From positions 4,723-68,722 of the IMG/VR virus record IMGVR_UViG_3300042453_002197: a stretch of 64,000 nucleotides of DNA; one strand, 5' to 3'. Positions 1 through 64,000 of the stretch are shown in pieces. The stretch is from a virus. Numbering within the stretch: position 1 is the first letter of the stretch; each line of letters opens with the position of its first letter. The notes beneath the pieces are model-generated. The model ran no database searches, was not told where the DNA came from, and was given only the letters and a program-made list of their open reading frames with translations. Made by a program: the position numbers and the translations under genes.

Positions 1-153
1 ACGGTCCAGTCGCTTTTCATTCTCAATCACAACTTCACCGACCCACATCAGAATGTTACCCTTCATAATGCGAGCCTGAATCAGATCGGGTTCAAGACCC
101 AGACGGGTACGCAGATCAGTACTGTTAACTTTTTGCTTAACGACGGTGTACAT
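1..153 (-). CDS. hypothetical protein, 5' part only (runs off window start)
   Basis: Manual translation MYTVVKQKVNSTDLRTRLGLEPDLIQARIMKGNILMWVGEVVIENEKRLDR, open to the edge; AAGGAG RBS upstream. Confidence 0.75.
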   Translation of the reverse strand, partial: MYTVVKQKVNSTDLRTRLGLEPDLIQARIMKGNILMWVGEVVIENEKRLDR

Positions 154-183
154 ATCCGACTCCTTAAATCAATCAATACATAT

Positions 184-212
184 ATTGTATATCCAAACCC
201 ATTTATTGTCAA
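184..212 (-). promoter_or_regulatory. sigma70-type early promoter
   Basis: TTGACA-17 nt-TACAAT on minus strand upstream of the 1..153 gene. Confidence 0.75.
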
Positions 213-216
213 ATTT

Positions 217-293
217 TGGTGCCCTAGACAGGATTCGAACCTGCAAAACCTGATATCTCAAACCAGTATGTTTACCACTTTCATCACCAGGGC
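217..293 (-). tRNA. tRNA-Leu(GAG), short variable loop
   Basis: Acceptor GCCCTGG/CTAGGGC, anticodon arm CTGGT-TTGAGAT-ATCAG, T arm GCAGG-TTCGAAT-CCTGT, encoded ACCA. Confidence 0.85.
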
Positions 294-304
294 ATTATTT
301 CGTT

Positions 305-392
305 TGGCGGAAGATCACGGAATCGAACCGTATCCACATTACTGGACCATCTGTTTTCGAGGCAGTGATAATCCCAGATTATTTGATCTTCC
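305..392 (-). tRNA. tRNA-Ser(CGA)
   Basis: Acceptor GGAAGAT/ATCTTCC, loop CT-CGA-AA, long variable arm, TTCGATT T loop, GCCA end; anticodon stem has two mismatches. Confidence 0.8.
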
Positions 393-485
393 TGGCAGAA
401 GGTGTGGGAGTCGAACCCACGTGTCCATTATACGTGAACCATCATCTTTCCAAGATGCGCCGATAGGCCTCTCCGGCAACCTTCT
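393..485 (-). tRNA. tRNA-Ser(GGA)
   Basis: Acceptor AGAAGGT/ACCTTCT, loop TT-GGA-AA, long variable arm, GTGGG-TTCGACT-CCCAC, GCCA end. Confidence 0.88.
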
Positions 486-492
486 AATATTT

Positions 493-568
493 TGGTAGGT
501 CTTGTTGGAGTTGAACCAACGATCTTCACTATGTCACAGTGACGATTTTACCACTAATCTAAAGACCT
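493..568 (-). tRNA. tRNA-Val(GAC)
   Basis: Acceptor AGGTCTT/AAGACCT, anticodon arm TCACT-GTGACAT-AGTGA, GTTGG-TTCAACT-CCAAC, ACCA end. Confidence 0.85.
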
Positions 569-784
569 AAGAATACCTTTTAGTCTAGTCAAATCTTGGG
601 CGGATAGAAACATTTCAAACTTCAGTTCTTCCCGCATAGGTTCAGACTTTACTATTTCTACCGTTTTAAACTTTAGATTATAAATCTTATTATCGTGATT
701 GTCTATTAATGAAGTTAGTTCCGCATAGGCACGATAGTCTTGATTGTCTACTAGCAACGTGCGAGATTGTTCAACTAACTTCAT
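554..784 (-). CDS. hypothetical protein
   Basis: 76-aa ORF, same strand as neighbours; last 15 nt overlap the tRNA-Val 5' end. Confidence 0.65.
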   Translation of the reverse strand: MKLVEQSRTLLVDNQDYRAYAELTSLIDNHDNKIYNLKFKTVEIVKSEPMREELKFEMFLSAQDLTRLKGILRSLD

Positions 785-805
785 TTTATGACTTCACCCA
801 AATAG

Positions 806-991
806 TTAATCTACATCAGAGTCTGAAGACTTTTCACGCTTGCCTGCTGTTTTACGTGCTTGTTCTGCACACAGTTCAGCGTCTATCATAGCACGTTTCC
901 AGTGTGGATAAACTTCACGTGAATAACGCATAGATGCTAGACGCATCTTTAGTGGCTTACTCATTTTATAACTTGATGTTGGTTTTTGCAT
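806..991 (-). CDS. hypothetical protein
   Basis: 61-aa ORF with AAGG RBS-like sequence and an upstream sigma70-like promoter. Confidence 0.65.
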   Translation of the reverse strand: MQKPTSSYKMSKPLKMRLASMRYSREVYPHWKRAMIDAELCAEQARKTAGKREKSSDSDVD

Positions 992-1014
992 TTTTTCCTT
1001 CTATAGTTTTGTTG

Positions 1015-1043
1015 AGTTTAATTTGTAACGAGATATTTGTCAA
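1015..1043 (-). promoter_or_regulatory. sigma70-type promoter
   Basis: TTGACA-17 nt-TAAACT. Confidence 0.55.
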
Positions 1044-1050
1044 ATACTTT

Positions 1051-1230
1051 TATTCCAAAACACACGTATTTATGATGTGTTTTGGAATATCCAGACTAGC
1101 TGGATATATCAGAGCTATACTCTGATCTGCTATTTATACTTATGTGTTATCGCCACACTTTCATCCAGCAGTCCGCCCGTTTAGTAGTTTATTTAATGTG
1201 CTCTACTAGGACCTCGTTTCCTGTTAGCAC
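1051..1230 (-). ncRNA. putative structured RNA (several stems, possible pseudoknot)
   Basis: Stems GUCC/GGAC, UAGUAG/CUACUA, GUGU/ACAC, AUCAGAG/CUCUGAU, UAUCCAG/CUGGAUA, UUCCAAAACACA/UGUGUUUUGGAA; 5' GUGCU complementary to loop AGCAC. Confidence 0.5.
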
Positions 1231-33123: not shown

Positions 33124-34740
33124 ATGCAATTACAGCAATTTTTTTATGACCAACAAATACGCCGCTATATCATTCAATTTATAAGAATGATAAGCAATTT
33201 TCAGGTACAGTTTGGCAAGGACAGAAATGGTATTATTGCACTTCAACGTGTACCCGTCATATATGGAGATAGTAGTAGACAAGTAGCCAGTGTTATCCAA
33301 CAAAACAGCGAAAGTACATTAAATTCTACTCCTTGTATGGCAGTTTATATAAGCGATCTTTCATATGACCGTGAAAGAGTGCAGAACCCAACCTATGTTG
33401 GCAAATTAAATGTACGTGAAAGATACTTCAATCCAGCGACCGGTAATTATTCAACAACTCAAGGTGATGTGTTAACAGTAGAAAGATTAATGCCTGTGCC
33501 ATATAAACTAACATTAAAATTAGATATATGGACTAGCAATACTGAACAAAAATTACAAATTATAGAACAAATCAGTACGCTATTTAATCCAGCTTTAGAA
33601 ATTCAATCTACTGATAACTATATTGATTGGACCAGTATTACCTACGTTTTATTAACACAAACTAATTGGAGTTCAAGAACAATACCAGTCGGTACTGGCA
33701 TAGATATTGACATAGCAACCCTTACGTTCGAATTACCAATTTTCATTAGTGCTCCAGCATTAGTAAAAAAGCTAGGCGTTATACAAAAAATTATCGCAAA
33801 TGTTTTTGATGCTAACGGTAATTTAGATGACGCTATTTACAATGATGCAAATCTACTAAGCAAACAATATATTACTCCATTACAGTATGGTGTAATACTA
33901 CTTGATAATCAACTTAGATTAGTTGCAAGTAATCAATCAGTTGATGACAAATTTGGTACTCAAATAGTGAAAGAATTGGCAGGGAATATATCGGCAAATA
34001 CTACCGTATACTTGACTGATGCAGATGGTATTAAACCGTCAATGATTGTGAGTAATTTAAGTATAACGAGTATAACATCCAATACAATTCAACCTGTATC
34101 GAATTGTGCTGTTATTTCAGTAAGTGGTGACACTGTAATTACCAGTAACGTCATCACTGGTAATATAGGTGATAAGATAGTATTTACCGATTTTACTAGA
34201 AAAAATGGCGCTGACGAACCTTGGCGTAATATTGTAAACATTTATGGCAATTTAGTTAATGGATCAAGTACTGTTAAATTGGAACTGGAAGATGAAACTT
34301 TAATTGTTGGGACAGTCGCATACAGTCCGATAGATGATACCGTATTATTATGGTCGCCTGATATTGATTCTTTACCCACAAACACGCTACCACCAATAAA
34401 TGCAATTATAGATCCTGTGGCTAGTCGTCCCAATTATTCACTTCAGGATCTTGCAGTAGGCACACGTTATCTTTTAGTTAATGATTATGTACTTGATTCG
34501 AATGTAGTACCGTACTATAATTGGACAGGTATAGACGATACACCATTAGAGGCATATAAAAATGACATTATAGAATTTACAGGCCAACACTGGGCAGTTG
34601 TTTTTGATAGTAGAAATGAAATTGTGGCACAGTATGTAACAAATTTAACAACTGGTATACAGTACAAATGGGATGCTACTAAATGGACTAAGAGTTATGA
34701 GGGATATTATCCAGCAGGAAAATGGCAATTAATAATATAA
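33124..34740 (+). CDS. tail terminator/sheath stabiliser (gp15-like) with C-terminal extension
   Basis: FFYD.QIRRY..QF, VP..YG, PVPY.L...L.IW, QIIEQI..LFNP. Confidence 0.85.
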   Translation: MQLQQFFYDQQIRRYIIQFIRMISNFQVQFGKDRNGIIALQRVPVIYGDSSRQVASVIQQNSESTLNSTPCMAVYISDLSYDRERVQNPTYVGKLNVRERYFNPATGNYSTTQGDVLTVERLMPVPYKLTLKLDIWTSNTEQKLQIIEQISTLFNPALEIQSTDNYIDWTSITYVLLTQTNWSSRTIPVGTGIDIDIATLTFELPIFISAPALVKKLGVIQKIIANVFDANGNLDDAIYNDANLLSKQYITPLQYGVILLDNQLRLVASNQSVDDKFGTQIVKELAGNISANTTVYLTDADGIKPSMIVSNLSITSITSNTIQPVSNCAVISVSGDTVITSNVITGNIGDKIVFTDFTRKNGADEPWRNIVNIYGNLVNGSSTVKLELEDETLIVGTVAYSPIDDTVLLWSPDIDSLPTNTLPPINAIIDPVASRPNYSLQDLAVGTRYLLVNDYVLDSNVVPYYNWTGIDDTPLEAYKNDIIEFTGQHWAVVFDSRNEIVAQYVTNLTTGIQYKWDATKWTKSYEGYYPAGKWQLII

Positions 34741-55665: not shown

Positions 55666-56718
55666 TTACTCTGTACCAGTGTTATTGTTATTTTTTTTAG
55701 GATATTTAATTAACAATTCGTTTTTAACTTGCTCAAAAGTATCTTCCCATTTACTAAATTTTTTCTGTCTAAACACTGTGGTATTTTCTGTATACCAAGG
55801 ACTATGTCTGTCTCCATAAGCCCACACGTGATAAGGTAAAATTGGAATTATTACCCAAGTTTGTTTGCCCATGGCTGATGCTAAATGCGCAATGCTTGTG
55901 CATGATGAAATGACTAAATCTAAATTTTCAATACAAGCTGCGGTGTCTTCCCAGCTTATTAAAGTATGATTAAGATCAGATATAGCATCAGGTAATTCTC
56001 GTAGATCGTTATCACGTTGCAGTGAATACCATTGACAATGTGGGAATTCTTTGTGAATGTTAATCAACATTTCTGGTGGAAATATTCTAAATTGTTGATG
56101 TTCAAATTTAGGATTGCCACTCCAACGAATACCTATTTTTGGTTTATCTGATTTTATTAATGTTCTCCAAATTTCTATACTTTCTGATTTGGCAAAAATA
56201 TATGGGTCATTTGGTATTGTTTCTGCGGTGTGACCAAAAACCCAACTACAACTAAACCCTGGAATCCAAAAATCATGATATGTTGACTGAACTTGATCTA
56301 ATGTAATACATTCAGTAACACCTGGTATACGTAAAAATAATGAATGAATAGTTTTGTCGCAACATAATATGCATCTACCACCACGTCGCCAAACCTCAGT
56401 GGCAAATCTTGCCTGTATTATGTTATCGCCGTAACCACCCTCTAAATTTATAATTACTATTTTATTTTTTAAATCAGTTCCATCCCAAATAGGCTTTTGT
56501 GTAGACAATTTAGGTCCACCATATACACTAAGTGATCTACCATATTCAAGACATTGAAATCCTTCTTGAAATTTACCTTGATTAATCAAAAACCAACCTC
56601 TATTAAATTTTGCTCTATAATTATCTGGAACACTTGCCTCTAATTCTTGTGCGATTTTCCAAGCTTCATCAAATCTACCACGTATCATTAAATTTAATTG
56701 TTGATCTATCAAGTGCAT
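55666..56718 (-). CDS. TPR plus GT9-like glycosyltransferase, paralog 1
   Basis: N-terminal TPR; WDG, EGGYGD.I..ARF, GI.W.G, YSLQ, EDTAA.I..LDLVIS. Confidence 0.8.
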   Translation of the reverse strand: MHLIDQQLNLMIRGRFDEAWKIAQELEASVPDNYRAKFNRGWFLINQGKFQEGFQCLEYGRSLSVYGGPKLSTQKPIWDGTDLKNKIVIINLEGGYGDNIIQARFATEVWRRGGRCILCCDKTIHSLFLRIPGVTECITLDQVQSTYHDFWIPGFSCSWVFGHTAETIPNDPYIFAKSESIEIWRTLIKSDKPKIGIRWSGNPKFEHQQFRIFPPEMLINIHKEFPHCQWYSLQRDNDLRELPDAISDLNHTLISWEDTAACIENLDLVISSCTSIAHLASAMGKQTWVIIPILPYHVWAYGDRHSPWYTENTTVFRQKKFSKWEDTFEQVKNELLIKYPKKNNNNTGTE

Positions 56719-56771: not shown

Positions 56772-59700
56772 TTAAGATTTTAGTGCATGCGTAAAACTGT
56801 TACCCATACTCGCACTTAACATTGTCCAACTACTAGATCCTACTTGCGTTGGACTAGACCTATTAATAGTGTTATTTAATCCTAATTGTCCTTTACTGCC
56901 ATCACCCCAAGCAAACAATTTATAGTCTGATCTAATGGCAGCACTCATACTACTACCAGTGCTTACTGTTGTCCAACTACTGACACCTATTTGTACTGGA
57001 CTTGATCTATTTAAAGTTGTTCCATCTCCTAGTCTGCCACTTGAACCTACTCCCCATGCAAATAATTTGTAGTCTGATCTTATAGCTAAAGAATGATAAC
57101 CGCTAGAACTAATACTAATCCAATTGCTTGTACCAATTTGAGTAGGACTACTTCTAGATAGAGTATCATTTAATCCTAATCTACCAGAAGTCCCTAATCC
57201 CCATGTAAACAATGCGCCATCACTTCTTATTGCTGAAGTAAATGACTCACCGATACTAACAGTGGTCCAACTACTTGAACCGACCTGAATTGGACTGTTA
57301 AAATCACTAATATTATTTCCTACTAATGCTGGACTACTTCTGTCTATAGTTTCATTAATTCCTAGACCCAATCTTCCACTTGTACTAGCACCCCAAGTGA
57401 ATAACAAATTGTCAGAACTAATCGCAGCAGTATGTACTCCTCCAGCCGAGACACTTGTCCAACTACTTGCGCCTATTTGCGTAGGACTACTTCTATCTAT
57501 GATGTCGTTAACTCCTAATCTGCCAGGGTTTCCAACTCCCCAGGCATATATTGTGCCATCAATTTCTTTTCCAATCGTATGATATCTTCCAGCACTAACA
57601 CTGGCCCAGCTACTAGTACCAATTTGCGTAGGACTACTTCTGTTAATGGTATCACCAACTCCTAATCTACCGCTAGTTCCCGGTCCCCAGGCAAATAATA
57701 TATTATCTGATAATATACCGACGGAGTGTTGATATCCCGCACTAACACTAGTCCAACTACTAGTTCCCACTTGTACGGGACTACTTCTAGTTATTGTGTC
57801 GCCTAATCCTAATCTACCACTAGTTCCAATACCCCACGCAAATAGTGCGCCATCGGTTCTTATGGCCAACGTCTGACTGCCGCCACCAGTAACACTAGTC
57901 CAACTACTAGTTCCCACTTGTGTAGGACTAATTCTATCTAGGGTATCATTTACACCTATTTGACCATTTACATTATCTCCCCAAGTAAATAATATTCCAT
58001 CCTGTCTTATAGCAGCCGTGTGATTTGATCCTGCTGCAACACTGGTCCAACTACTAGTACCAATTTGTATTGGACTGCTTCTATTTGACAGAAGACTTGC
58101 TCCCAATTGTCCGTCCGAATCAGTTCCCCACGTAAATAATATACCGTCCGTTCTAATTGCTGCGGTGTGTGCTCCACCTGCTGCAACACTAGTCCAACTA
58201 CTAGTGCCTATTTGTGTAGGACTACTTCTAGAAATGGTGTCGCCGACTCCTAATCTACCGCCAATGCCTGATCCCCACGTAAATAAATATCCATCATTTC
58301 TTATTGCAGCAGTATGTGCATAACCAGAACTAACACTGGTCCAACTGTATATAATCGTTCCTGTACCTAAAGTCCCAGCCGCTCCTTGTCCCCATGTAAA
58401 TAATTTATAATCCGAATTGATAGCAGCACTATGAAGTGTTCTGGCGGCACTAATAACTCTCCAATCACCTGTGCCGATCTGAACCGGACTTGATCTAGCA
58501 ATAGTATCATCTAAACCTAATTGTCCACCAGCATTCAATCCCCAGCCGAACAATTTATTATCTGATCTTATTGCTAATGTTGCATCATCACCAGCACTTA
58601 CGCTAATCCAACTACTAGCTCCAACCTGTGTTGGACTACTTCTAGGAACACCAGTAGCACCAAGTCCTAAAATATCGGTACTAAGTACATTATCCCCCCA
58701 AACAAATAAAAGGTTGTCTGATCGAATAGCAGCAGTATGAGATTCTCCTGTACTCACCATTTTCCAACTTCTTAATCCAATTTGAACTGGACTGGAAGTA
58801 CTTAATATTGAATTAGTACCAACAGTAAACGGATTACTCCTTAGAAGAGTTGAATTGTTACCAAGTTGGCCGTCGGCACCTTGTCCCCAAGCCAACAATA
58901 GTGACTCTGTGTTAATTGCAACTGTATGTGTACCTCCAGCACTAACACTAGTCCAACTATTAGCTGGAAAAGAAACTACAACTGGACTACTTCTGTTTGT
59001 TGTAGATGTAATTCCTAATCTTCCAGAAGAACCTAAACCCCATGCATATAATTGATTGTCTGATCTAATTGCCATGGAATGATTCATTCCCGCCGAAACA
59101 CTGATCCAACTACTAGTGCCAACTTGAGTAGGGCTGCTTCTAGTAATGGTGTCACCTAAACCTAAACCTAATTGTCCATAAATATTTCTACCCCAAGTAA
59201 ATAATTTGTAATCTGATCTTACTGCTAAACTAAAACCACCACCGGCACTAACACTTATCCAACTACTAATGCCAACTTGAGTAGGACTACTTCTGTCAAG
59301 GGAATCTCCTAAACCTAATCTACCATTAATTCCAGTTCCCCACGTGTAAAGAATATTGTCAGATTTCAACCCAGTAGAATGAGCGTTTATACTTATTGAT
59401 GACCAATTATCTAAACCAACTTGCACTGGGCTAAGAAAATCAACTGCGTTATTACCAACTGAAGTAGGACTACTTCTATCAAAAGTATTATTTATTCCTA
59501 AACCTAAAGCTCCAAAACTACCGTTGCCAAAAGTGTACAATATATTAGCTGAATTAATTGCTGAAGTGTGTATTACACCTGCACTCACACTTGTCCAACT
59601 GCTAGTACCAACTTGAGTAGGACTACTTCTAGTTATTGTGTTGTTTAAACCTAGTCTTCCGCTTGTAGCTAAACCCCACGTAAACAAAGCGCCGTCCGTT

Positions 59701-62231
59701 CTTATTGCTCCTGTATGATTAGGTCCTATGCCTATGGTTGTCCAATCGCTAGTACCAACTTGTGTAGGACTTGATCTAGAAATTACATCTGATAATCCTA
59801 GTTTGCCATTTCCACCATCACCCCACATATATAATTTGTTACTTCTGATTCCACCAGTAAAATTATTACCTGCATCAACTATTATCCAACTATCTGTTCC
59901 CATTTGAACAGGACTACCTACACTTCCAGCAGTATTGCCTACTAAGGTAGGACTACTTCTATTTAAAGTTTCCGCTACTCCTAATCTACCGTTGGCTCCT
60001 GAACCCCATGCATAAAAAATACTGTTATTTAGTGTTGCTAATGAATGAGCATCAGCGGCACTTATTAAAGTCCAACTATTAGTACCAATTTGTGTTGGGC
60101 TACTTCTAGAAATAGTATCGTTGGTACCTAATCTACCACTTGAATTTCTACCCCATGTAAATAATCTGCCATCAGACCTAATACCTAACGCATGATCTAC
60201 ACCTGCACTCACGCTTGTCCAACTACTAGTTCCAACCTGTGTTGGACTACTTCTGTTTGACAGATCAGCTAACGCGGTTGATGAAAGTCCTAATTGTCCT
60301 ATACTGCCTTGTCCCCAAGTATATAATAAACCACTTGAAATAATTCCAGCAGTAAAATATCCTCCAGCACTGATAGTTGTCCAACTACTAGATCCTATTT
60401 GAACTGGACTGCTTCGTGATAACGTATCGCCAAACCCTAGTCTTCCACTTGTTCCTAAACCCCAAGTAAATAATGAACTACCCGATCTTATAGCAGCAGA
60501 ATGGGATCTTCCAGCACTTACGCTAGTCCAACTGCTTGTACCAATTTGAGTTGGACTACTTCTATTTAATGTGTCACCTAGTCCTAATCTGCCGTTTCCA
60601 CCTGCTCCCCAAATAAAAAGTGCACCATCACTTCTAATAGCAGCAGCATGATTAGTTCCCGCTGAAATGCTAATCCAACTACTTGTACCAATTTGAGTTG
60701 GACTACTTCTAAGTATTGTATCGTTTAAGCCTATTCTTCCATTTGTACCACTACCAAAGGCAAACAATGCATTATCTGATCTTAATGCAAAAGTGTTATA
60801 ACCGCCAGCACTAACAGCCAACCAACTACTAGTGCCTATTTGTATAGGACTGCTTCTAGCAATGGTGTCACCGGTGCCTAAACGTCCTGAACTACCTGTT
60901 CCCCAAACAAATAACTTATTATCTGATCTTATAGCAGCACTATGTGTGTAACCGGCACTTATACTTGTCCAACTAAAAATAGGAGTTAAAACACCTAATT
61001 GACCATTTATTCCTTCACCCCAAGAAAAAATTACACCATCTGATCTTTTAGCTAATGAATGATTCTGGCCGCCAGTTACTGCAACCCAACTACTTGTTCC
61101 TAATTGCGTTGGACTTGATCTATTTATAGAATCTCCTAAACCTAATTGTTCTGAGCTATTTGCTCCCCACACAAATAACTGATTATTTGAATTAATTGCC
61201 AGTGAATGTGCTATTCCAGCACTGACACTTATCCAACTGTCTGAACCTATCTGAGTTGGACTGCTTCTATCTACCGTACTAAAAGTAGGTATACCTAATC
61301 TACCACTACTTGATGAACCCCATGTAAAAAGTAAATTATCCGATCTTAACGCTAAAGTATGAAAATCACTTGAACTCACACTAATCCAACTATCATTACC
61401 TATTTGTGTAGGACTACTTCTGTTCAAGGAATCTCCTAAACCTAATCTACCACTAGTACCAGCTCCCCATGAAAAGAGTTTGTTATCTGATCTTATTGCA
61501 GTGGTAAATGATGAGCCAGAGCTTACACTAGTCCAACTATAAATTGTGGAAAGAACTCCCAATCTACCACCGTCACCATAACCCCAAGTAAAAAGTTTAT
61601 TGTTAGAGTTTATAGCAGCAGAAAACTCTGTGCCTGCATCTATACTGATCCAACTGCTTGAACCTAATTGAGTCGGACTACTTCTAGTAACACGATCACC
61701 AAGACCTAGTTGCCCACGTTGACTTATTCCCCACACAAATAACAAATTATCTGAACGAATAGCTAAGGTATAATTATCTCCGGCACTAACGGCCAACCAA
61801 CTACTTGAACCTATTTGAGTTGGACTACTTCTGCTTAATGTATCGCCAGTTCCTAAAACTCCATTATTAAGTCCCCAAGCAAATAATAAATTATCATTTC
61901 TAATCGCTAAGGTATGAGTATCTCCGGCACTAACACTAGTCCAACTATACAGGTCAGTTGTTGCACCTAACTGGCCTAAAGTATTATCTCCCCAAGTCCA
62001 TAAAAAAAGATTTGTAGTTATAGATCCAGCTGCCGCAAATAAGGTGCCTATATCAACACCAATACTTTGAAAGTTAGCTGTGCCGTATGGTGTACCCAAA
62101 GCAGCGTCTGCATAAAAATTACTAATGTCTGAACCACTTATTTGATAACTTACGTCGGCACGTTTAGACGTAGAACCTATAGGTTCAAATAAAGTGTCTA
62201 AATCAACGCCATTAACTGTAAAACCAGCCAT
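56772..62231 (-). CDS. giant RCC1-repeat protein (35 blades, five predicted beta-propellers)
   Basis: ~50-aa repeat SSW.SVSAG..H..AIRSD..LF.WG....G.LG.....RSSP.Q.G. Confidence 0.92.
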   Translation of the reverse strand: MAGFTVNGVDLDTLFEPIGSTSKRADVSYQISGSDISNFYADAALGTPYGTANFQSIGVDIGTLFAAAGSITTNLFLWTWGDNTLGQLGATTDLYSWTSVSAGDTHTLAIRNDNLLFAWGLNNGVLGTGDTLSRSSPTQIGSSSWLAVSAGDNYTLAIRSDNLLFVWGISQRGQLGLGDRVTRSSPTQLGSSSWISIDAGTEFSAAINSNNKLFTWGYGDGGRLGVLSTIYSWTSVSSGSSFTTAIRSDNKLFSWGAGTSGRLGLGDSLNRSSPTQIGNDSWISVSSSDFHTLALRSDNLLFTWGSSSSGRLGIPTFSTVDRSSPTQIGSDSWISVSAGIAHSLAINSNNQLFVWGANSSEQLGLGDSINRSSPTQLGTSSWVAVTGGQNHSLAKRSDGVIFSWGEGINGQLGVLTPIFSWTSISAGYTHSAAIRSDNKLFVWGTGSSGRLGTGDTIARSSPIQIGTSSWLAVSAGGYNTFALRSDNALFAFGSGTNGRIGLNDTILRSSPTQIGTSSWISISAGTNHAAAIRSDGALFIWGAGGNGRLGLGDTLNRSSPTQIGTSSWTSVSAGRSHSAAIRSGSSLFTWGLGTSGRLGFGDTLSRSSPVQIGSSSWTTISAGGYFTAGIISSGLLYTWGQGSIGQLGLSSTALADLSNRSSPTQVGTSSWTSVSAGVDHALGIRSDGRLFTWGRNSSGRLGTNDTISRSSPTQIGTNSWTLISAADAHSLATLNNSIFYAWGSGANGRLGVAETLNRSSPTLVGNTAGSVGSPVQMGTDSWIIVDAGNNFTGGIRSNKLYMWGDGGNGKLGLSDVISRSSPTQVGTSDWTTIGIGPNHTGAIRTDGALFTWGLATSGRLGLNNTITRSSPTQVGTSSWTSVSAGVIHTSAINSANILYTFGNGSFGALGLGINNTFDRSSPTSVGNNAVDFLSPVQVGLDNWSSISINAHSTGLKSDNILYTWGTGINGRLGLGDSLDRSSPTQVGISSWISVSAGGGFSLAVRSDYKLFTWGRNIYGQLGLGLGDTITRSSPTQVGTSSWISVSAGMNHSMAIRSDNQLYAWGLGSSGRLGITSTTNRSSPVVVSFPANSWTSVSAGGTHTVAINTESLLLAWGQGADGQLGNNSTLLRSNPFTVGTNSILSTSSPVQIGLRSWKMVSTGESHTAAIRSDNLLFVWGDNVLSTDILGLGATGVPRSSPTQVGASSWISVSAGDDATLAIRSDNKLFGWGLNAGGQLGLDDTIARSSPVQIGTGDWRVISAARTLHSAAINSDYKLFTWGQGAAGTLGTGTIIYSWTSVSSGYAHTAAIRNDGYLFTWGSGIGGRLGVGDTISRSSPTQIGTSSWTSVAAGGAHTAAIRTDGILFTWGTDSDGQLGASLLSNRSSPIQIGTSSWTSVAAGSNHTAAIRQDGILFTWGDNVNGQIGVNDTLDRISPTQVGTSSWTSVTGGGSQTLAIRTDGALFAWGIGTSGRLGLGDTITRSSPVQVGTSSWTSVSAGYQHSVGILSDNILFAWGPGTSGRLGVGDTINRSSPTQIGTSSWASVSAGRYHTIGKEIDGTIYAWGVGNPGRLGVNDIIDRSSPTQIGASSWTSVSAGGVHTAAISSDNLLFTWGASTSGRLGLGINETIDRSSPALVGNNISDFNSPIQVGSSSWTTVSIGESFTSAIRSDGALFTWGLGTSGRLGLNDTLSRSSPTQIGTSNWISISSSGYHSLAIRSDYKLFAWGVGSSGRLGDGTTLNRSSPVQIGVSSWTTVSTGSSMSAAIRSDYKLFAWGDGSKGQLGLNNTINRSSPTQVGSSSWTMLSASMGNSFTHALKS

Positions 62232-62717
62232 TTATTGTCCTTGATACATTGGCCAAACTACATTTGCTAAATCTTCTTGACTTGTAATATCAGCTAACGC
62301 TTGCATATAATTATCCATATTTTGTAAATCGTCAGTCGTAGGTAAATTTAATCGGACTTGCCTTTCATATCTAGTATATCGCCATTCGAATTCTTTCATT
62401 AGTTCATCACGTTTTTGTCTGACAGGCTGTAATAATTCATCTCTTGACGGCGGTGTATATGGCGGTAATGGTGTTATTTCTCTATGCTCATAAACTTCAC
62501 CATTTTGTACACTGTAAGTTGGAAAATCACTCATTCTATGAGTAGAAGAGTCAAATGCAGTAGTATCTGGTATAATTTTAACAAATCCATTATCACGCAT
62601 ATATGTGGCATTATTTTGACAAAGAATATTAAAATTGTTAATGCCATTCCAAAATTTAGGAATAGAGTAATATACTCCTTTTACCTCATTGTCTACCACA
62701 TTCGCATATACCGTCAT
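62232..62717 (-). CDS. tail fibre assembly chaperone-like protein
   Basis: C-terminal VR.KRD.L...W...Y.QAL.DIT.Q...V.WP. Confidence 0.75.
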
Positions 62718-64000
62718 TTTTTACTTTCCTCAATCATTGTTTTAAGATTGTTAATTTGTTGTTGTTGTTCCTTAATAGCCTCTATTAATAATCCAATAAT
62801 ACTATCGTAAGATACAGATTTGATTCCCTTTTCATTTGTTTGAACAACTTCTGGTACAATTTTTTCTATTTCTTGAGCAATAATTCCTATTGATGCTGCC
62901 TTAGTGTCACGCCATGTAAATGATACACCACGAAGATTTAATACTTTTTCTAGTGCATTTTCTAATGTTTGAATATTTTCTTTACTATTTATGTCTGATA
63001 GTGTATTGAAAATTGTTGCATTTAGTGTTCCAGTGTTTGGGTTAAAATAAAATTTAGTGGTAGTAACTTCAGCAGTTTGATTACTTCCTGCGGCAGCAAC
63101 AAATACTGGATAATGTGATGCATTTGTTGTTGTGTCATCAGTTGCATTTATCGTCGTAGATGGTCCAGTTGGTCCCTGAGGTCCTTGTATACCTTGTGGC
63201 CCTTGTATACCCTGAGGTCCCTGCGGTCCTTGTGGCCCTTGTATACCCTGAGGTCCCTGCGGTCCTTGAGTTCCTAATGGTCCAATTGGTCCTTGTGGTC
63301 CTTGTGGTCCTTGTGATCCTAAATTACCCTGCGGCCCTTGTGGTCCCTGTGGTCCCTGTGGGCCCTGCGGTCCTTGTATTCCCTGTGGGCCCTGCGGTCC
63401 TTGTGATCCAGGATTACCCTGTGGTCCTTGTGGACCTTGTGGTCCTTGTGATCCAGGATTACCCTGTGGTCCTTGAGGTCCTTGTATGCCTTGTGGTCCC
63501 TGTGGCCCCTGTGATCCTGTTGGTCCAATTGGGCCCTGAGGTCCCTGAGGTCCCTGTGGTCCTGGATTACCCTGAGGTCCTTGTGGTCCCTGTATACCTT
63601 GCGGTCCCTGTGGCCCTTGTGGCCCTTGTGGCCCTTGTGGCCCTTGTATACCTTGTGGGCCCTGAGGTCCTTGTGGTCCCTGTATACCTTGCGGTCCCTG
63701 TGGCCCTTGTGGCCCTTGTATACCTTGTGGGCCCTGAGGTCCTTGTGGTCCTTGTGGTCCTTGTGGTCCCTGTGGTCCCTGAAGACCTCTTGGTCCTTGT
63801 GGTCCCTGTATACCTTGCGGCCCCTGTGGCCCTTGTGGCCCTTGTATACCTTGTGGGCCCTGAGGTCCTTGTGGTCCTTGTATACCCTGAGGTCCTTGTA
63901 TACCCTGAGGTCCTTGTGGTCCCTGTATACCTTGCGGTCCCTGTGGCCCTTGTGGCCCTTGTATACCTTGTGGGCCCTGAGGTCCTTGTGGTCCTTGTGG
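62714..64000 (-). CDS. collagen-like fibre protein with C-terminal peptidase S74 chaperone domain (5' end outside window)
   Basis: Not in the ORF track; manual translation gives Gly-X-Y repeats then SDINSKENI...LRGVSFTW...GIIAQE.E...PEVV...[14 protein letters not shown]; stop at 62714. Confidence 0.92.
63161..64000 (-). repeat. 9-nt-period collagen repeat (GPQ, GIQ, some GSQ/GNP)
   Basis: About 90 Gly-X-Y triplets, GC-rich relative to the rest of the window. Confidence 0.95.

What the first reader, a model, noticed from the sequence alone, without database searches (positions are those of the whole stretch)
56772..62231. Nested (Matryoshka) architecture: five 7-bladed RCC1 propellers inserted recursively into one another
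Seen: the repeat array breaks at four opening junctions where a blade stops after G.LG and a new one starts at (Y/F)SW (about 61949, 61541, 60977, 58349), and at four closing junctions where an orphan SP.Q.G strand follows VG(N/T) (about 59934, 59451, 58815, 57315). Treating these as brackets gives exactly seven blades at every level: innermost 7; next 4+3; next 3+4; a separate insert of 7; and a base of half+3+3+half. Known: RCC1/BLIP-II domains are 7-bladed. Inference: a base propeller carries two branches, one three propellers deep and one single, each inserted in the equivalent loop. This would be a branched multivalent adhesin or decoration protein built by recursive domain insertion, not tandem duplication. 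I know of no description of this layout.
Basis: partly seen in the sequence, partly recalled or inferred. Interest (0 to 1): 0.9.

Follow-up and report, generated by a model that had tools for sequence, protein, structure and literature searches.

The report
Nested RCC1 propellers in phage protein
A 1,819-residue protein beside the tail-fibre genes of an uncultured phage is built of 35 RCC1 blades whose missing and doubled strands indicate five seven-bladed propellers plugged into each other's loops, a branched design known so far only one level deep in an unrelated yeast protein.

Summary
ORF 56772-62231 (-) encodes 35 RCC1 blades. Four blades lack their outer (D) strand and four linkers carry two D strands, in the order (()). 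Read as brackets, every level holds seven blades; 1 of 200,000 label shuffles does this.

The rule is general. In 240 homologues, 59 of 67 clean simple bracketed units hold 7 blades. 22 of 27 clean split units sum to 7 although the split point varies: 4+3, 3+4, 5+2, 2+5. Relatives with the same N-terminal head have 2, 4 and 4 propellers in different trees.

The structure predictions disagree:
- AlphaFold2 on blades 4-17 put the inner ring at the brackets and closed an outer ring from 4+3 blades.
- A two-chain fold of blades 1-7 with blades 15-21 interleaved them as nesting predicts (score 0.66, best control 0.00).
- AlphaFold2 on blades 1-21 gave three consecutive rings and left the orphan strands disordered.

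I rate nesting about 75% likely. A virion fibre or adhesin role is inferred from context only. One-level propeller-in-propeller insertion is published for yeast Trm734, so this is a new variant of a known kind. This scan noted the same design before on other DNA (46 notes, at least 31 genomes).

The parts
56772..62231 (-). Whole gene, 1,819 aa, 35 RCC1 blades plus a 58-aa N-terminal head
62058..62231 (-). N-terminal non-RCC1 head (aa 1-58). It is shared at 46-79% identity with 9 of the 240 retrieved homologues.
   Evidence: phrog_11610 (unknown function) E 1e-6
61965..62057 (-). Base propeller, split blade: strand C region (aa 59-89)
   Evidence: partial HMM hit at positions 5-33
61947..61964 (-). 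Opening 1: 6-aa linker with no D strand, ending in YSW
61557..61946 (-). Level 1, first part: blades 1-3 (aa 96-225); blade 3 lacks strand D
   Evidence: predicted contacts of blade 3 with blade 18 and of blade 1 with blade 21
61539..61556 (-). Opening 2 (aa 226-231)
60993..61538 (-). Level 2, first part: blades 4-7 (aa 232-413); blade 7 lacks strand D
   Evidence: outer ring in AF2 model 2; contacts
60975..60992 (-). Opening 3 (aa 414-419)
59934..60974 (-). Level 3, innermost contiguous propeller: blades 8-14 (aa 420-766)
   Evidence: AF2 plus VIA-align against UVR8: Z 54.5-55.8, rmsd 1.4-1.7, 346-347 aligned, at exactly these limits
59892..59933 (-). Closing 3: linker with the orphan D strand assigned to blade 7 (aa 767-780)
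   Evidence: a strand in model 2 but pLDDT under 50; in the interface
59451..59891 (-). Level 2, second part: blades 15-17 (aa 781-927)
59409..59450 (-). Closing 2: orphan D strand assigned to blade 3 (aa 928-941)
58812..59408 (-). Level 1, second part: blades 18-21 (aa 942-1140)
58770..58811 (-). Closing 1: orphan D strand assigned to the split base blade (aa 1141-1154)
58365..58769 (-). Base propeller: blades 22-24 (aa 1155-1289); blade 24 lacks strand D
58347..58364 (-). Opening 4 (aa 1290-1295)
57312..58346 (-). Second branch: contiguous propeller of blades 25-31 (aa 1296-1640)
   Evidence: bracket parse; no structure prediction was run on it
57273..57311 (-). Closing 4: orphan D strand assigned to blade 24 (aa 1641-1653)
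56832..57272 (-). Base propeller: blades 32-34 (aa 1654-1800)
56775..56831 (-). Base propeller, split blade: strands A-B at the C terminus (aa 1801-1819)
   Evidence: HMM positions 1-17; the same truncated last unit occurs in P0122, P0032 and P0060

Best explanation
The protein is a single chain of five seven-bladed RCC1-type beta-propellers arranged as a tree, not a string.

The base propeller is closed by a split blade. Strands A-B come from the C terminus, strand C from aa 59-89, and strand D from aa 1147-1152. It carries two guests, each in the loop between strands C and D of a host blade:
- a branch three propellers deep: level 1 is blades 1-3 plus 18-21, level 2 is blades 4-7 plus 15-17, and level 3 is blades 8-14;
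- a single propeller of blades 25-31.

Each guest starts at a strand A, marked (Y/F)SW, and ends at a strand D, marked SP.(L/S/T)VG(N/T). Its two ends therefore lie side by side. The host blade is completed by the 'orphan' D strand that follows the guest. These points are shown or predicted.

The function is inferred. The 58-aa N-terminal head probably anchors the protein to the virion near the tail fibres, and the five propeller faces act as a multivalent binding surface (adhesin, fibre or decoration).
For: 1. Strand book-keeping. There are 35 A, 35 C and 35 D strands. Four D strands are missing and four are extra, in balanced bracket order, with seven blades at each level. Chance gives this in 1 of 200,000 shuffles.

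2. Orphan strands. They keep the D-strand motif and the normal short D-to-A spacing.

3. Homologues, PSSM parser over 240 proteins with this protein excluded. Of 156 matched levels, 94 were clean.
- 59 of 67 simple levels hold 7 blades.
- 22 of 27 split levels sum to 7, with the guest after host blade 4 (8 cases), 3 (6), 5 (5) or 2 (3).
- In 500 shuffles the means were 3.1 and 1.2 and the maxima 13 and 4.

4. Relatives with the same head.
- P0122 is B(P).
- P0060 is B(P; P(P)).
- P0032 is B(P(P(P))) with splits 4+3 and 4+3. Consecutive rings there would need 8 and 6 blades.

5. AF2 on aa 227-928 (pLDDT 85.4).
- The inner ring sits at the bracket limits, not in the consecutive register.
- 1 of 50 rows and 2 of 50 rows align a seven-blade propeller across the whole model (1/4..702): 257-263 residues aligned, Z 15.9-16.0. 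This is an outer ring made of 4+3 blades.

6. Two-chain fold of aa 91-414 with aa 767-1141.
- The score was 0.66 against 0.00 for the best of 3 controls. That mark was reached by 58 of 80 solved complexes and 2 of 110 mismatched pairs.
- The runs agreed in at least 93% of contacts, and partner pLDDT was at least 87.
- There were 451-486 contacts. They join blade 1 to blade 21 and blade 3 to blade 18 (lowest-error pairs).
- The named interface stretches fit blade 7 against its orphan D and blade 15, and blade 4 against blade 17.
- Because RCC1 rings are solved structures, this pass may come partly from memory of the fold.

7. Context. A collagen-like tail fibre gene and a tail-assembly-chaperone-like gene lie directly upstream on the same strand. 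Relatives lie in IMG/VR viral contigs.
Against: - AF2 on aa 91-1141 (pLDDT 84.5, pTM 0.48) built three rings from consecutive blades. In one search, 5 of 50 rows align to model 686/689..1042/1051 and 2 of 50 to 1..316. In one search, 1 of 50 rows aligns to 705..1051. No row shows a ring that joins the first and last blades. One row (5ov3_A, 1..680, 260 aligned) is ambiguous.
- In both AF2 models the orphan D segments have pLDDT under 50.
- A stricter regex parser gave only 4 of 12 clean split levels equal to seven, with four at six.
- 62 of the 156 matched levels were set aside as unclean.
- The base ring and the second branch were never folded.
- No coordinates could be inspected. Topology was read from aligned ranges and the contact list only.
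- Nothing here shows that the protein is in the virion or binds anything.
Confidence: 0.75

Rival explanations
1. Mixed layout. The base propeller still hosts guests, but blades 1-21 form three consecutive rings (1-7, 8-14, 15-21). Blades 3 and 7 are then three-stranded and the two orphan D strands are loose loops.
For: AF2 model of aa 91-1141: 5 plus 2 of 50 rows and 1 of 50 align propellers to contiguous ranges. The orphan D segments have pLDDT under 50.
Against: - It leaves two strands that keep the D-strand motif without a sheet.
- It is possible only because 3+4 = 7 here. In P0032, with the same head at 79% identity, the left parts are 4+4 and the right parts 3+3.
- 22 of 27 split levels in homologues sum to seven.
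- The two-chain fold interleaved the pieces although each chain could have closed on itself.
Confidence: 0.15
2. Plain tandem array. There are five consecutive propellers, and the short and long linkers are only loop-length variation with no topological meaning.
For: - Many homologues of 14 blades show no brackets at all.
- 161 of 331 long linkers in homologues carry only one recognisable D motif.
Against: - The bracket arithmetic is far beyond chance.
- 276 of 292 short linkers lack any D motif.
- AF2 on blades 4-17 placed the ring at the brackets (model 190-540) and not in the 7+7 consecutive register.
Confidence: 0.03
3. Strand exchange between chains. The missing and extra D strands complement each other across subunits of an oligomeric fibre, not within one chain.
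For: Phage fibres are commonly oligomers (general knowledge). The sequence book-keeping is the same for exchange in cis and in trans.
Against: - The linkers around the orphan strands are short: about 6 aa before and 2-3 aa after.
- The in-chain solution satisfies all strands.
- No oligomer test was run.
Confidence: 0.05

Closest known systems
Trm734 (yeast WD40 triple propeller; PMC6847430, passages of 'Overall structure' read)
   Same: The chain starts with strand d7 of propeller BPC. Propeller BPB is placed between strands c7 and d7 of BPA, and BPA is completed by the returning d7. This is the same c-to-d insertion site and the same 'orphan D' logic as here.
   Different: - It is the WD40 family, not RCC1.
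- Insertion occurs only in the last blade.
- It is a fixed three-propeller layout with no recursion into internal blades, no branching and no variation among relatives.
- It is a cellular tRNA-methylation cofactor.
- Its Supplementary Figure S6B could not be seen.
UBR5 interrupted RCC1-like domain (PMC10830417, passages read; PDB 8p82/8p83/8d4x)
   Same: It is an RCC1-type seven-blade ring that tolerates large domains inserted in its blades. VIA rows align about 250 residues over chain range 35/41..873.
   Different: The guests are UBA and small beta-barrel domains, not propellers, and nesting is one level deep.
Single RCC1-like domains: UVR8, HERC2 RLDs, RPGR, RCC1, BLIP-II
   Same: The innermost unit superposes on UVR8 at Z 55.8, rmsd 1.4, 346 of 370 residues and 32% identity. 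The other families listed score Z 27-47.
   Different: Those are single rings, and no solved chain matched more than one ring. The guest rings here begin at strand A and end at strand D, so by sequence they have no split closing blade.
phiKZ gp131 C-terminal propeller (PDB 4gbf)
   Same: It is a seven-blade propeller from a phage protein (Z 17.6-18.0, 268-272 aligned, rmsd 4.5-4.8).
   Different: It is not of RCC1 type (10% identity) and is a single ring. Its place in the virion is recalled and was not checked here.

Membership tests
RCC1-like domain (Pfam PF00415 / PF25390) | RCC1 repeat sequence signature | tested here: met
   PF00415 at E 1e-294 in 29 stretches; PF25390 at 1,113.6 bits against a cut-off of 150
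RCC1-like domain (Pfam PF00415 / PF25390) | Seven four-stranded blades closing one ring | tested here: met
   Predicted only. The inner unit aa 416-766 aligns to UVR8 at Z 55.8, rmsd 1.4, 346 aligned. DSSP shows four strands per blade.
RCC1-like domain (Pfam PF00415 / PF25390) | Ring closed by a blade built from both chain ends | tested here: inconclusive
   The base ring has a split blade by sequence but was not folded. The guest rings run from strand A to strand D, so they have no split blade by sequence.
Propeller-in-propeller insertion (Trm734 type) | A complete guest propeller lies between strands c and d of a host blade, and the host blade is completed by the returning d strand | tested here: met
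   - By sequence: four C-to-A jumps and four D-D pairs.
- By prediction: an outer 4+3 ring and interleaved contacts.
- One AF2 model disagrees.
- There is no experimental structure.
Phage tail fibre / receptor-binding protein | Part of the virion, attached through an N-terminal anchor | not testable with these tools
   Only gene position is available. The head matches phrog_11610, of unknown function.
Phage tail fibre / receptor-binding protein | Sequence match to a known fibre family | tested here: inconclusive
   PHROGs gives 'regulator of chromosome condensation' families. The one tail family (phrog_13857, E 7e-7) has no stretch that passes on its own.

The most novel reading that the evidence does not exclude
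Phages possess a reusable, self-closing seven-blade RCC1 cassette with conserved entry and exit joints. It can be dropped into the C-D loop of any blade of any other RCC1 propeller, including one that is itself a guest. This yields single-chain 'propeller trees' whose shape changes between close relatives. It would be a recursive way of building branched, multivalent host-binding proteins, with no described counterpart in protein architecture.
Probability: 0.6. Interest if true: 0.8.

Novelty: new variant of a known kind. Interest (0 to 1): 0.7.

Why it matters
Domain insertion is common, but recursive insertion of the same fold into itself would be a distinct way to build large proteins. Here it runs three levels deep, branches, and gives trees that differ between relatives sharing the same head.

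It gives structural biology a compact test case of 1,819 aa, with natural versions of 2 and 4 propellers. It warns annotators that long RCC1 arrays are not simply tandem, and it shows a case where two predictors disagree on topology. If the protein is a virion adhesin, the tree would present five propeller faces from one anchor. That bears on how large uncultured phages diversify host binding.

Tried and rejected
- **Blade similarity.** A blade-by-blade similarity matrix within the protein was meant to show whether nested or consecutive sets correspond in order. All blades are near consensus (mean scores 0.46-0.59 at every shift), so it was uninformative.
- **Looking for one clean indel.** Pairwise global alignments (P0085, P0105 and P0122 against P0062, P0066, P0032 and P0060) scattered the gaps over many blades. 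Only the length difference (317 aa for P0085/P0062) fits about one propeller.
- **Strict regex D-strand parser.** It loses many closings and gives 4 of 12 split levels equal to seven. I replaced it with a PSSM calibrated at 92% sensitivity and 0.3% false hits.
- **Nucleotide search.** Megablast of the gene against phage records found no match. A distant search with the tail sheath gene found only short 79-81% stretches in Pseudomonas jumbo phages.
- **Protein Atlas.** The head (aa 1-75) gave no usable hit.
- **Literature.** searched RCC1/propeller/nested, propeller inserted, nested propeller, propeller-in-propeller, discontinuous, interdigitated or intertwined propeller, and RCC1 with phage, virion or tail fibre. 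No paper on nested RCC1 propellers turned up. The TREAD preprint (passages read) uses 'nested' in another sense.
- **Model files.** They are not available to scripts, so no contact map of the AF2 models could be made.
Full report
**What is there.** The finding covers one minus-strand ORF, 56772..62231, of 1,819 aa. It lies in an IMG/VR virus record of 68,722 bases with an estimated completeness of 20. All 33 RCC1 matches in that record fall in this ORF. Pfam scores it as RCC1 (E 1e-294, 29 stretches) and RCC1-like domain (1,113.6 bits). A 33-position HMM of strands A-B-C, built from the protein itself, finds 34 full cores, a partial one at aa 59-89 and a half one at the C terminus.

**The junctions.** Linkers between cores are 16-21 aa and hold one D strand, with eight exceptions.
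- Four linkers of 6 aa have no D strand and end in (Y/F)SW.
- Four linkers of 29-31 aa have two D strands, the first ending VG(N/T).

In order they read (()). Parsed as brackets they give 7, 4+3, 3+4, 7 and a base of half+3+3+half. Shuffling the 34 linker labels reproduces four matched levels of seven once in 200,000 trials. The DNA copies are only 60-84% identical, so assembly collapse is not an issue.

**Why brackets mean nesting.** A unit that begins at strand A after a short linker and ends at strand C before another short linker has one D too few. A unit between two long linkers has one D too many. Tandem propellers with any kind of split closing blade would show normal-looking junctions, so they cannot produce this pattern. 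The orphan D is followed by the normal 2-3 residue step into the next strand A. It therefore occupies the D position of the blade that precedes that next blade in the ring, and only in the nested reading is that position vacant. This paragraph is inference from the sequence and the known blade order.

**Homologues.** The 120 best long homologues listed (1,488-3,183 aa) and the 120 best short ones listed show the same two extra linker classes. Linker lengths peak at 16-18, with side peaks at 6 and 30-31.
- 276 of 292 short linkers have no D motif.
- 3,161 of 3,906 normal linkers have exactly one.
- 122 of 331 long linkers have two, 161 have one and 45 have none.

Three parsers were run, with this protein excluded each time.

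| Parser | Proteins | Matched / clean levels | Simple levels = 7 | Split levels = 7 | Null mean (max) over 500 shuffles, simple; split |
|---|---|---|---|---|---|
| Linker length only | 120 | 186 / 105 | 40 of 73 | 20 of 32 | 3.25 (9); 1.6 (7) |
| Strict regex | 240 | 118 / 66 | 42 of 54 | 4 of 12 | 2.62 (8); 0.71 (4) |
| Rebuilt core HMM plus calibrated D-strand PSSM | 240 | 156 / 94 | 59 of 67 | 22 of 27 | 3.1 (13); 1.2 (4) |

In the third parse the guest sits after host blade 4 (8 cases), 3 (6), 5 (5) or 2 (3). A variable split point that always sums to seven is what nesting predicts. Consecutive rings do not predict it.

**Relatives with the same head.** Residues 1-75 match the N termini of nine of the 240 retrieved homologues at 46-79% identity. 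Hand parsing of three of them gives:
- P0122 (796 aa): a base with one guest in the split blade, 14 blades;
- P0060 (1,500 aa): a base with one simple guest and one guest that itself holds a guest, 28 blades;
- P0032 (1,488 aa, head 79% identical): a three-deep nest with splits 4+3 and 4+3, 28 blades.

Blade number therefore moves in sevens and the tree shape differs. In P0032 consecutive rings would need 8 and 6 blades.

**Structure prediction, first model (against nesting).** AF2 on aa 91-1141 (blades 1-21, 41-row alignment) gave mean pLDDT 84.5 and pTM 0.48. pLDDT fell below 50 at the orphan D segments and at one opening.
- VIA-align placed UVR8 on model 327..678, the innermost bracket, at Z 54.5, rmsd 1.7, 347 aligned.
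- Other rows aligned propellers to 705..1051 (1 of 50 rows), to 686/689..1042/1051 (5 of 50) and to 1..316 (2 of 50).
- This model therefore has three consecutive rings. Blades 3 and 7 are three-stranded and the orphan strands are unplaced.
- This counts against nesting of levels 1 and 2. It is possible here only because 3+4 and 3+4 also make seven.

**Structure prediction, second model (for nesting).** AF2 on aa 227-928 (blades 4-7 | 8-14 | 15-17, the same 40 homologues) gave pLDDT 85.4 and pTM 0.56.
- The ring was placed at model 190..540, the bracket limits, and not in a 7+7 consecutive register (UVR8 Z 55.8, rmsd 1.4, 346 aligned).
- Three rows align one seven-blade propeller across the whole model. 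5i2t covers 2..677 with 250 aligned, Z 16.5 (1 of 50 rows). 7c72_B covers 4..702 with 257 aligned, Z 16.0, and 8wt1_A covers 1..702 with 263 aligned, Z 15.9 (2 of 50 rows).
- Those scores equal what such targets give on the inner ring (5yzm_A, Z 15.8).
- The orphan D is a strand in this model, but its pLDDT is under 50.

**Structure prediction, two-chain fold (for nesting).** A two-chain fold of aa 91-414 with aa 767-1141 tests whether the pieces close on themselves or interleave. The tool calls its model ESMFold2.
- The score was 0.66 (runs 0.68, 0.66, 0.65), against 0.00 for the best of 3 controls.
- That mark was reached by 58 of 80 solved complexes and 2 of 110 mismatched pairs. These counts hold only roughly, because my own alignment was used.
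- The runs agree in at least 93% of contacts, and partner pLDDT is at least 87.
- There were 451-486 contacts, 407-415 of them confident.
- The lowest-error pairs join blade 1 to blade 21 and blade 3 to blade 18.
- The named interface stretches fit blade 7 against its orphan D and blade 15, and blade 4 against blade 17.
- Those are the four junctions nesting requires, and they are spread around each ring.
- RCC1 rings are solved structures, so the pass may owe something to memory of the fold. It supports interleaving but does not show it.

**Context and function.** A collagen-like tail fibre gene with a Peptidase_S74 chaperone domain and a tail-assembly-chaperone-like gene lie directly upstream on the same strand. 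The latter ends one base before the RCC1 start. A tail sheath gene lies at 33124-34740. Downstream come a TPR/GT9-like protein, a sulfotransferase, a 2OG-Fe(II) oxygenase and a methyltransferase. Two IMG/VR contigs carry related RCC1 giants beside the same accessory genes. Cultured-phage hits reach at most 42.5% identity (Synechococcus phages). PHROGs offers only the generic name 'regulator of chromosome condensation'. A virion fibre or adhesin role is therefore an inference from position, the conserved head and lectin-type inserts in relatives. I put it near 50%.

**Known comparisons.**
- In Trm734 (PMC6847430, passages of 'Overall structure'), BPB sits between strands c7 and d7 of BPA, and the N-terminal strand belongs to the last blade of BPC. 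This is the same insertion logic in WD40, one level deep and fixed.
- UBR5 has an interrupted RCC1-like domain with UBA and dSBB domains in blades 2 and 5 (PMC10830417, passages).
- DDB1 is named there only as another three-propeller protein. Its chain path is recalled and was not checked.
- Six literature searches found no nested RCC1 propellers.
- This scan noted the design before on other DNA: 46 notes in at least 31 genomes. One follow-up also reported that prediction failed to reproduce a three-deep nest.

**Verdict.** Nesting is the best-supported architecture, at about 0.75 for all levels. It is more likely still that at least the bracketed contiguous units are guests of a split base ring. 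The function is inferred. In novelty it is a new variant of a known kind.

Noticed in passing
window 55666-56718 (-); L001:15980-17029; L002:4685-5725: The 350-aa TPR/GT9-like protein directly downstream of the RCC1 gene is 70% and 64% identical to proteins beside RCC1 giants in two other viral contigs. A sulfotransferase-like protein (phrog_27463) travels with it. This conserved neighbourhood hints at a functional link, possibly modification of the Ser-rich blades.
   Followed up: partly
L001:5-11524 and L001:11521-15954: Two abutting RCC1 ORFs of 3,839 and 1,477 aa lie in an IMG/VR contig. The first has 57 cores, at least 5 openings and 9 closings, and three non-RCC1 inserts of 230-251 aa. 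This suggests much deeper nesting, possibly continuing across the gene boundary.
   Followed up: partly
homologues P0062, P0080, P0085, P0105 and others (strings; Pfam columns): Non-RCC1 segments of about 230-310 aa sit at the innermost bracket position. In these proteins the precomputed Pfam lists include PF13385 and PF02210 (laminin-G/lectin type). The C-D loop therefore seems to accept foreign domains as well as propellers.
   Followed up: no
window 62714-64000 (-) and 62232-62717 (-): A collagen-repeat tail fibre with a C-terminal Peptidase_S74 chaperone domain runs off the window end. It is followed by a 161-aa tail-assembly-chaperone-like gene that ends one base before the RCC1 start codon.
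   Followed up: partly
junction linkers in 240 homologues: Opening linkers share a loose consensus ending in (Y/F)SW: about 48% have Y or F at that position among the 84 linkers of 8 residues. Guest-ending D strands tend towards SP.(L/Q)(V/I)G. This hints at conserved entry and exit joints.
   Followed up: partly
whole record G000 (window = bases 4723-68722 of it): The virus record is 68.7 kb at an estimated 20% completeness. Its tail sheath gene gives only short 79-81% DNA matches to roughly 285-kb Pseudomonas jumbo phages. The source may therefore be a very large phage.
   Followed up: no
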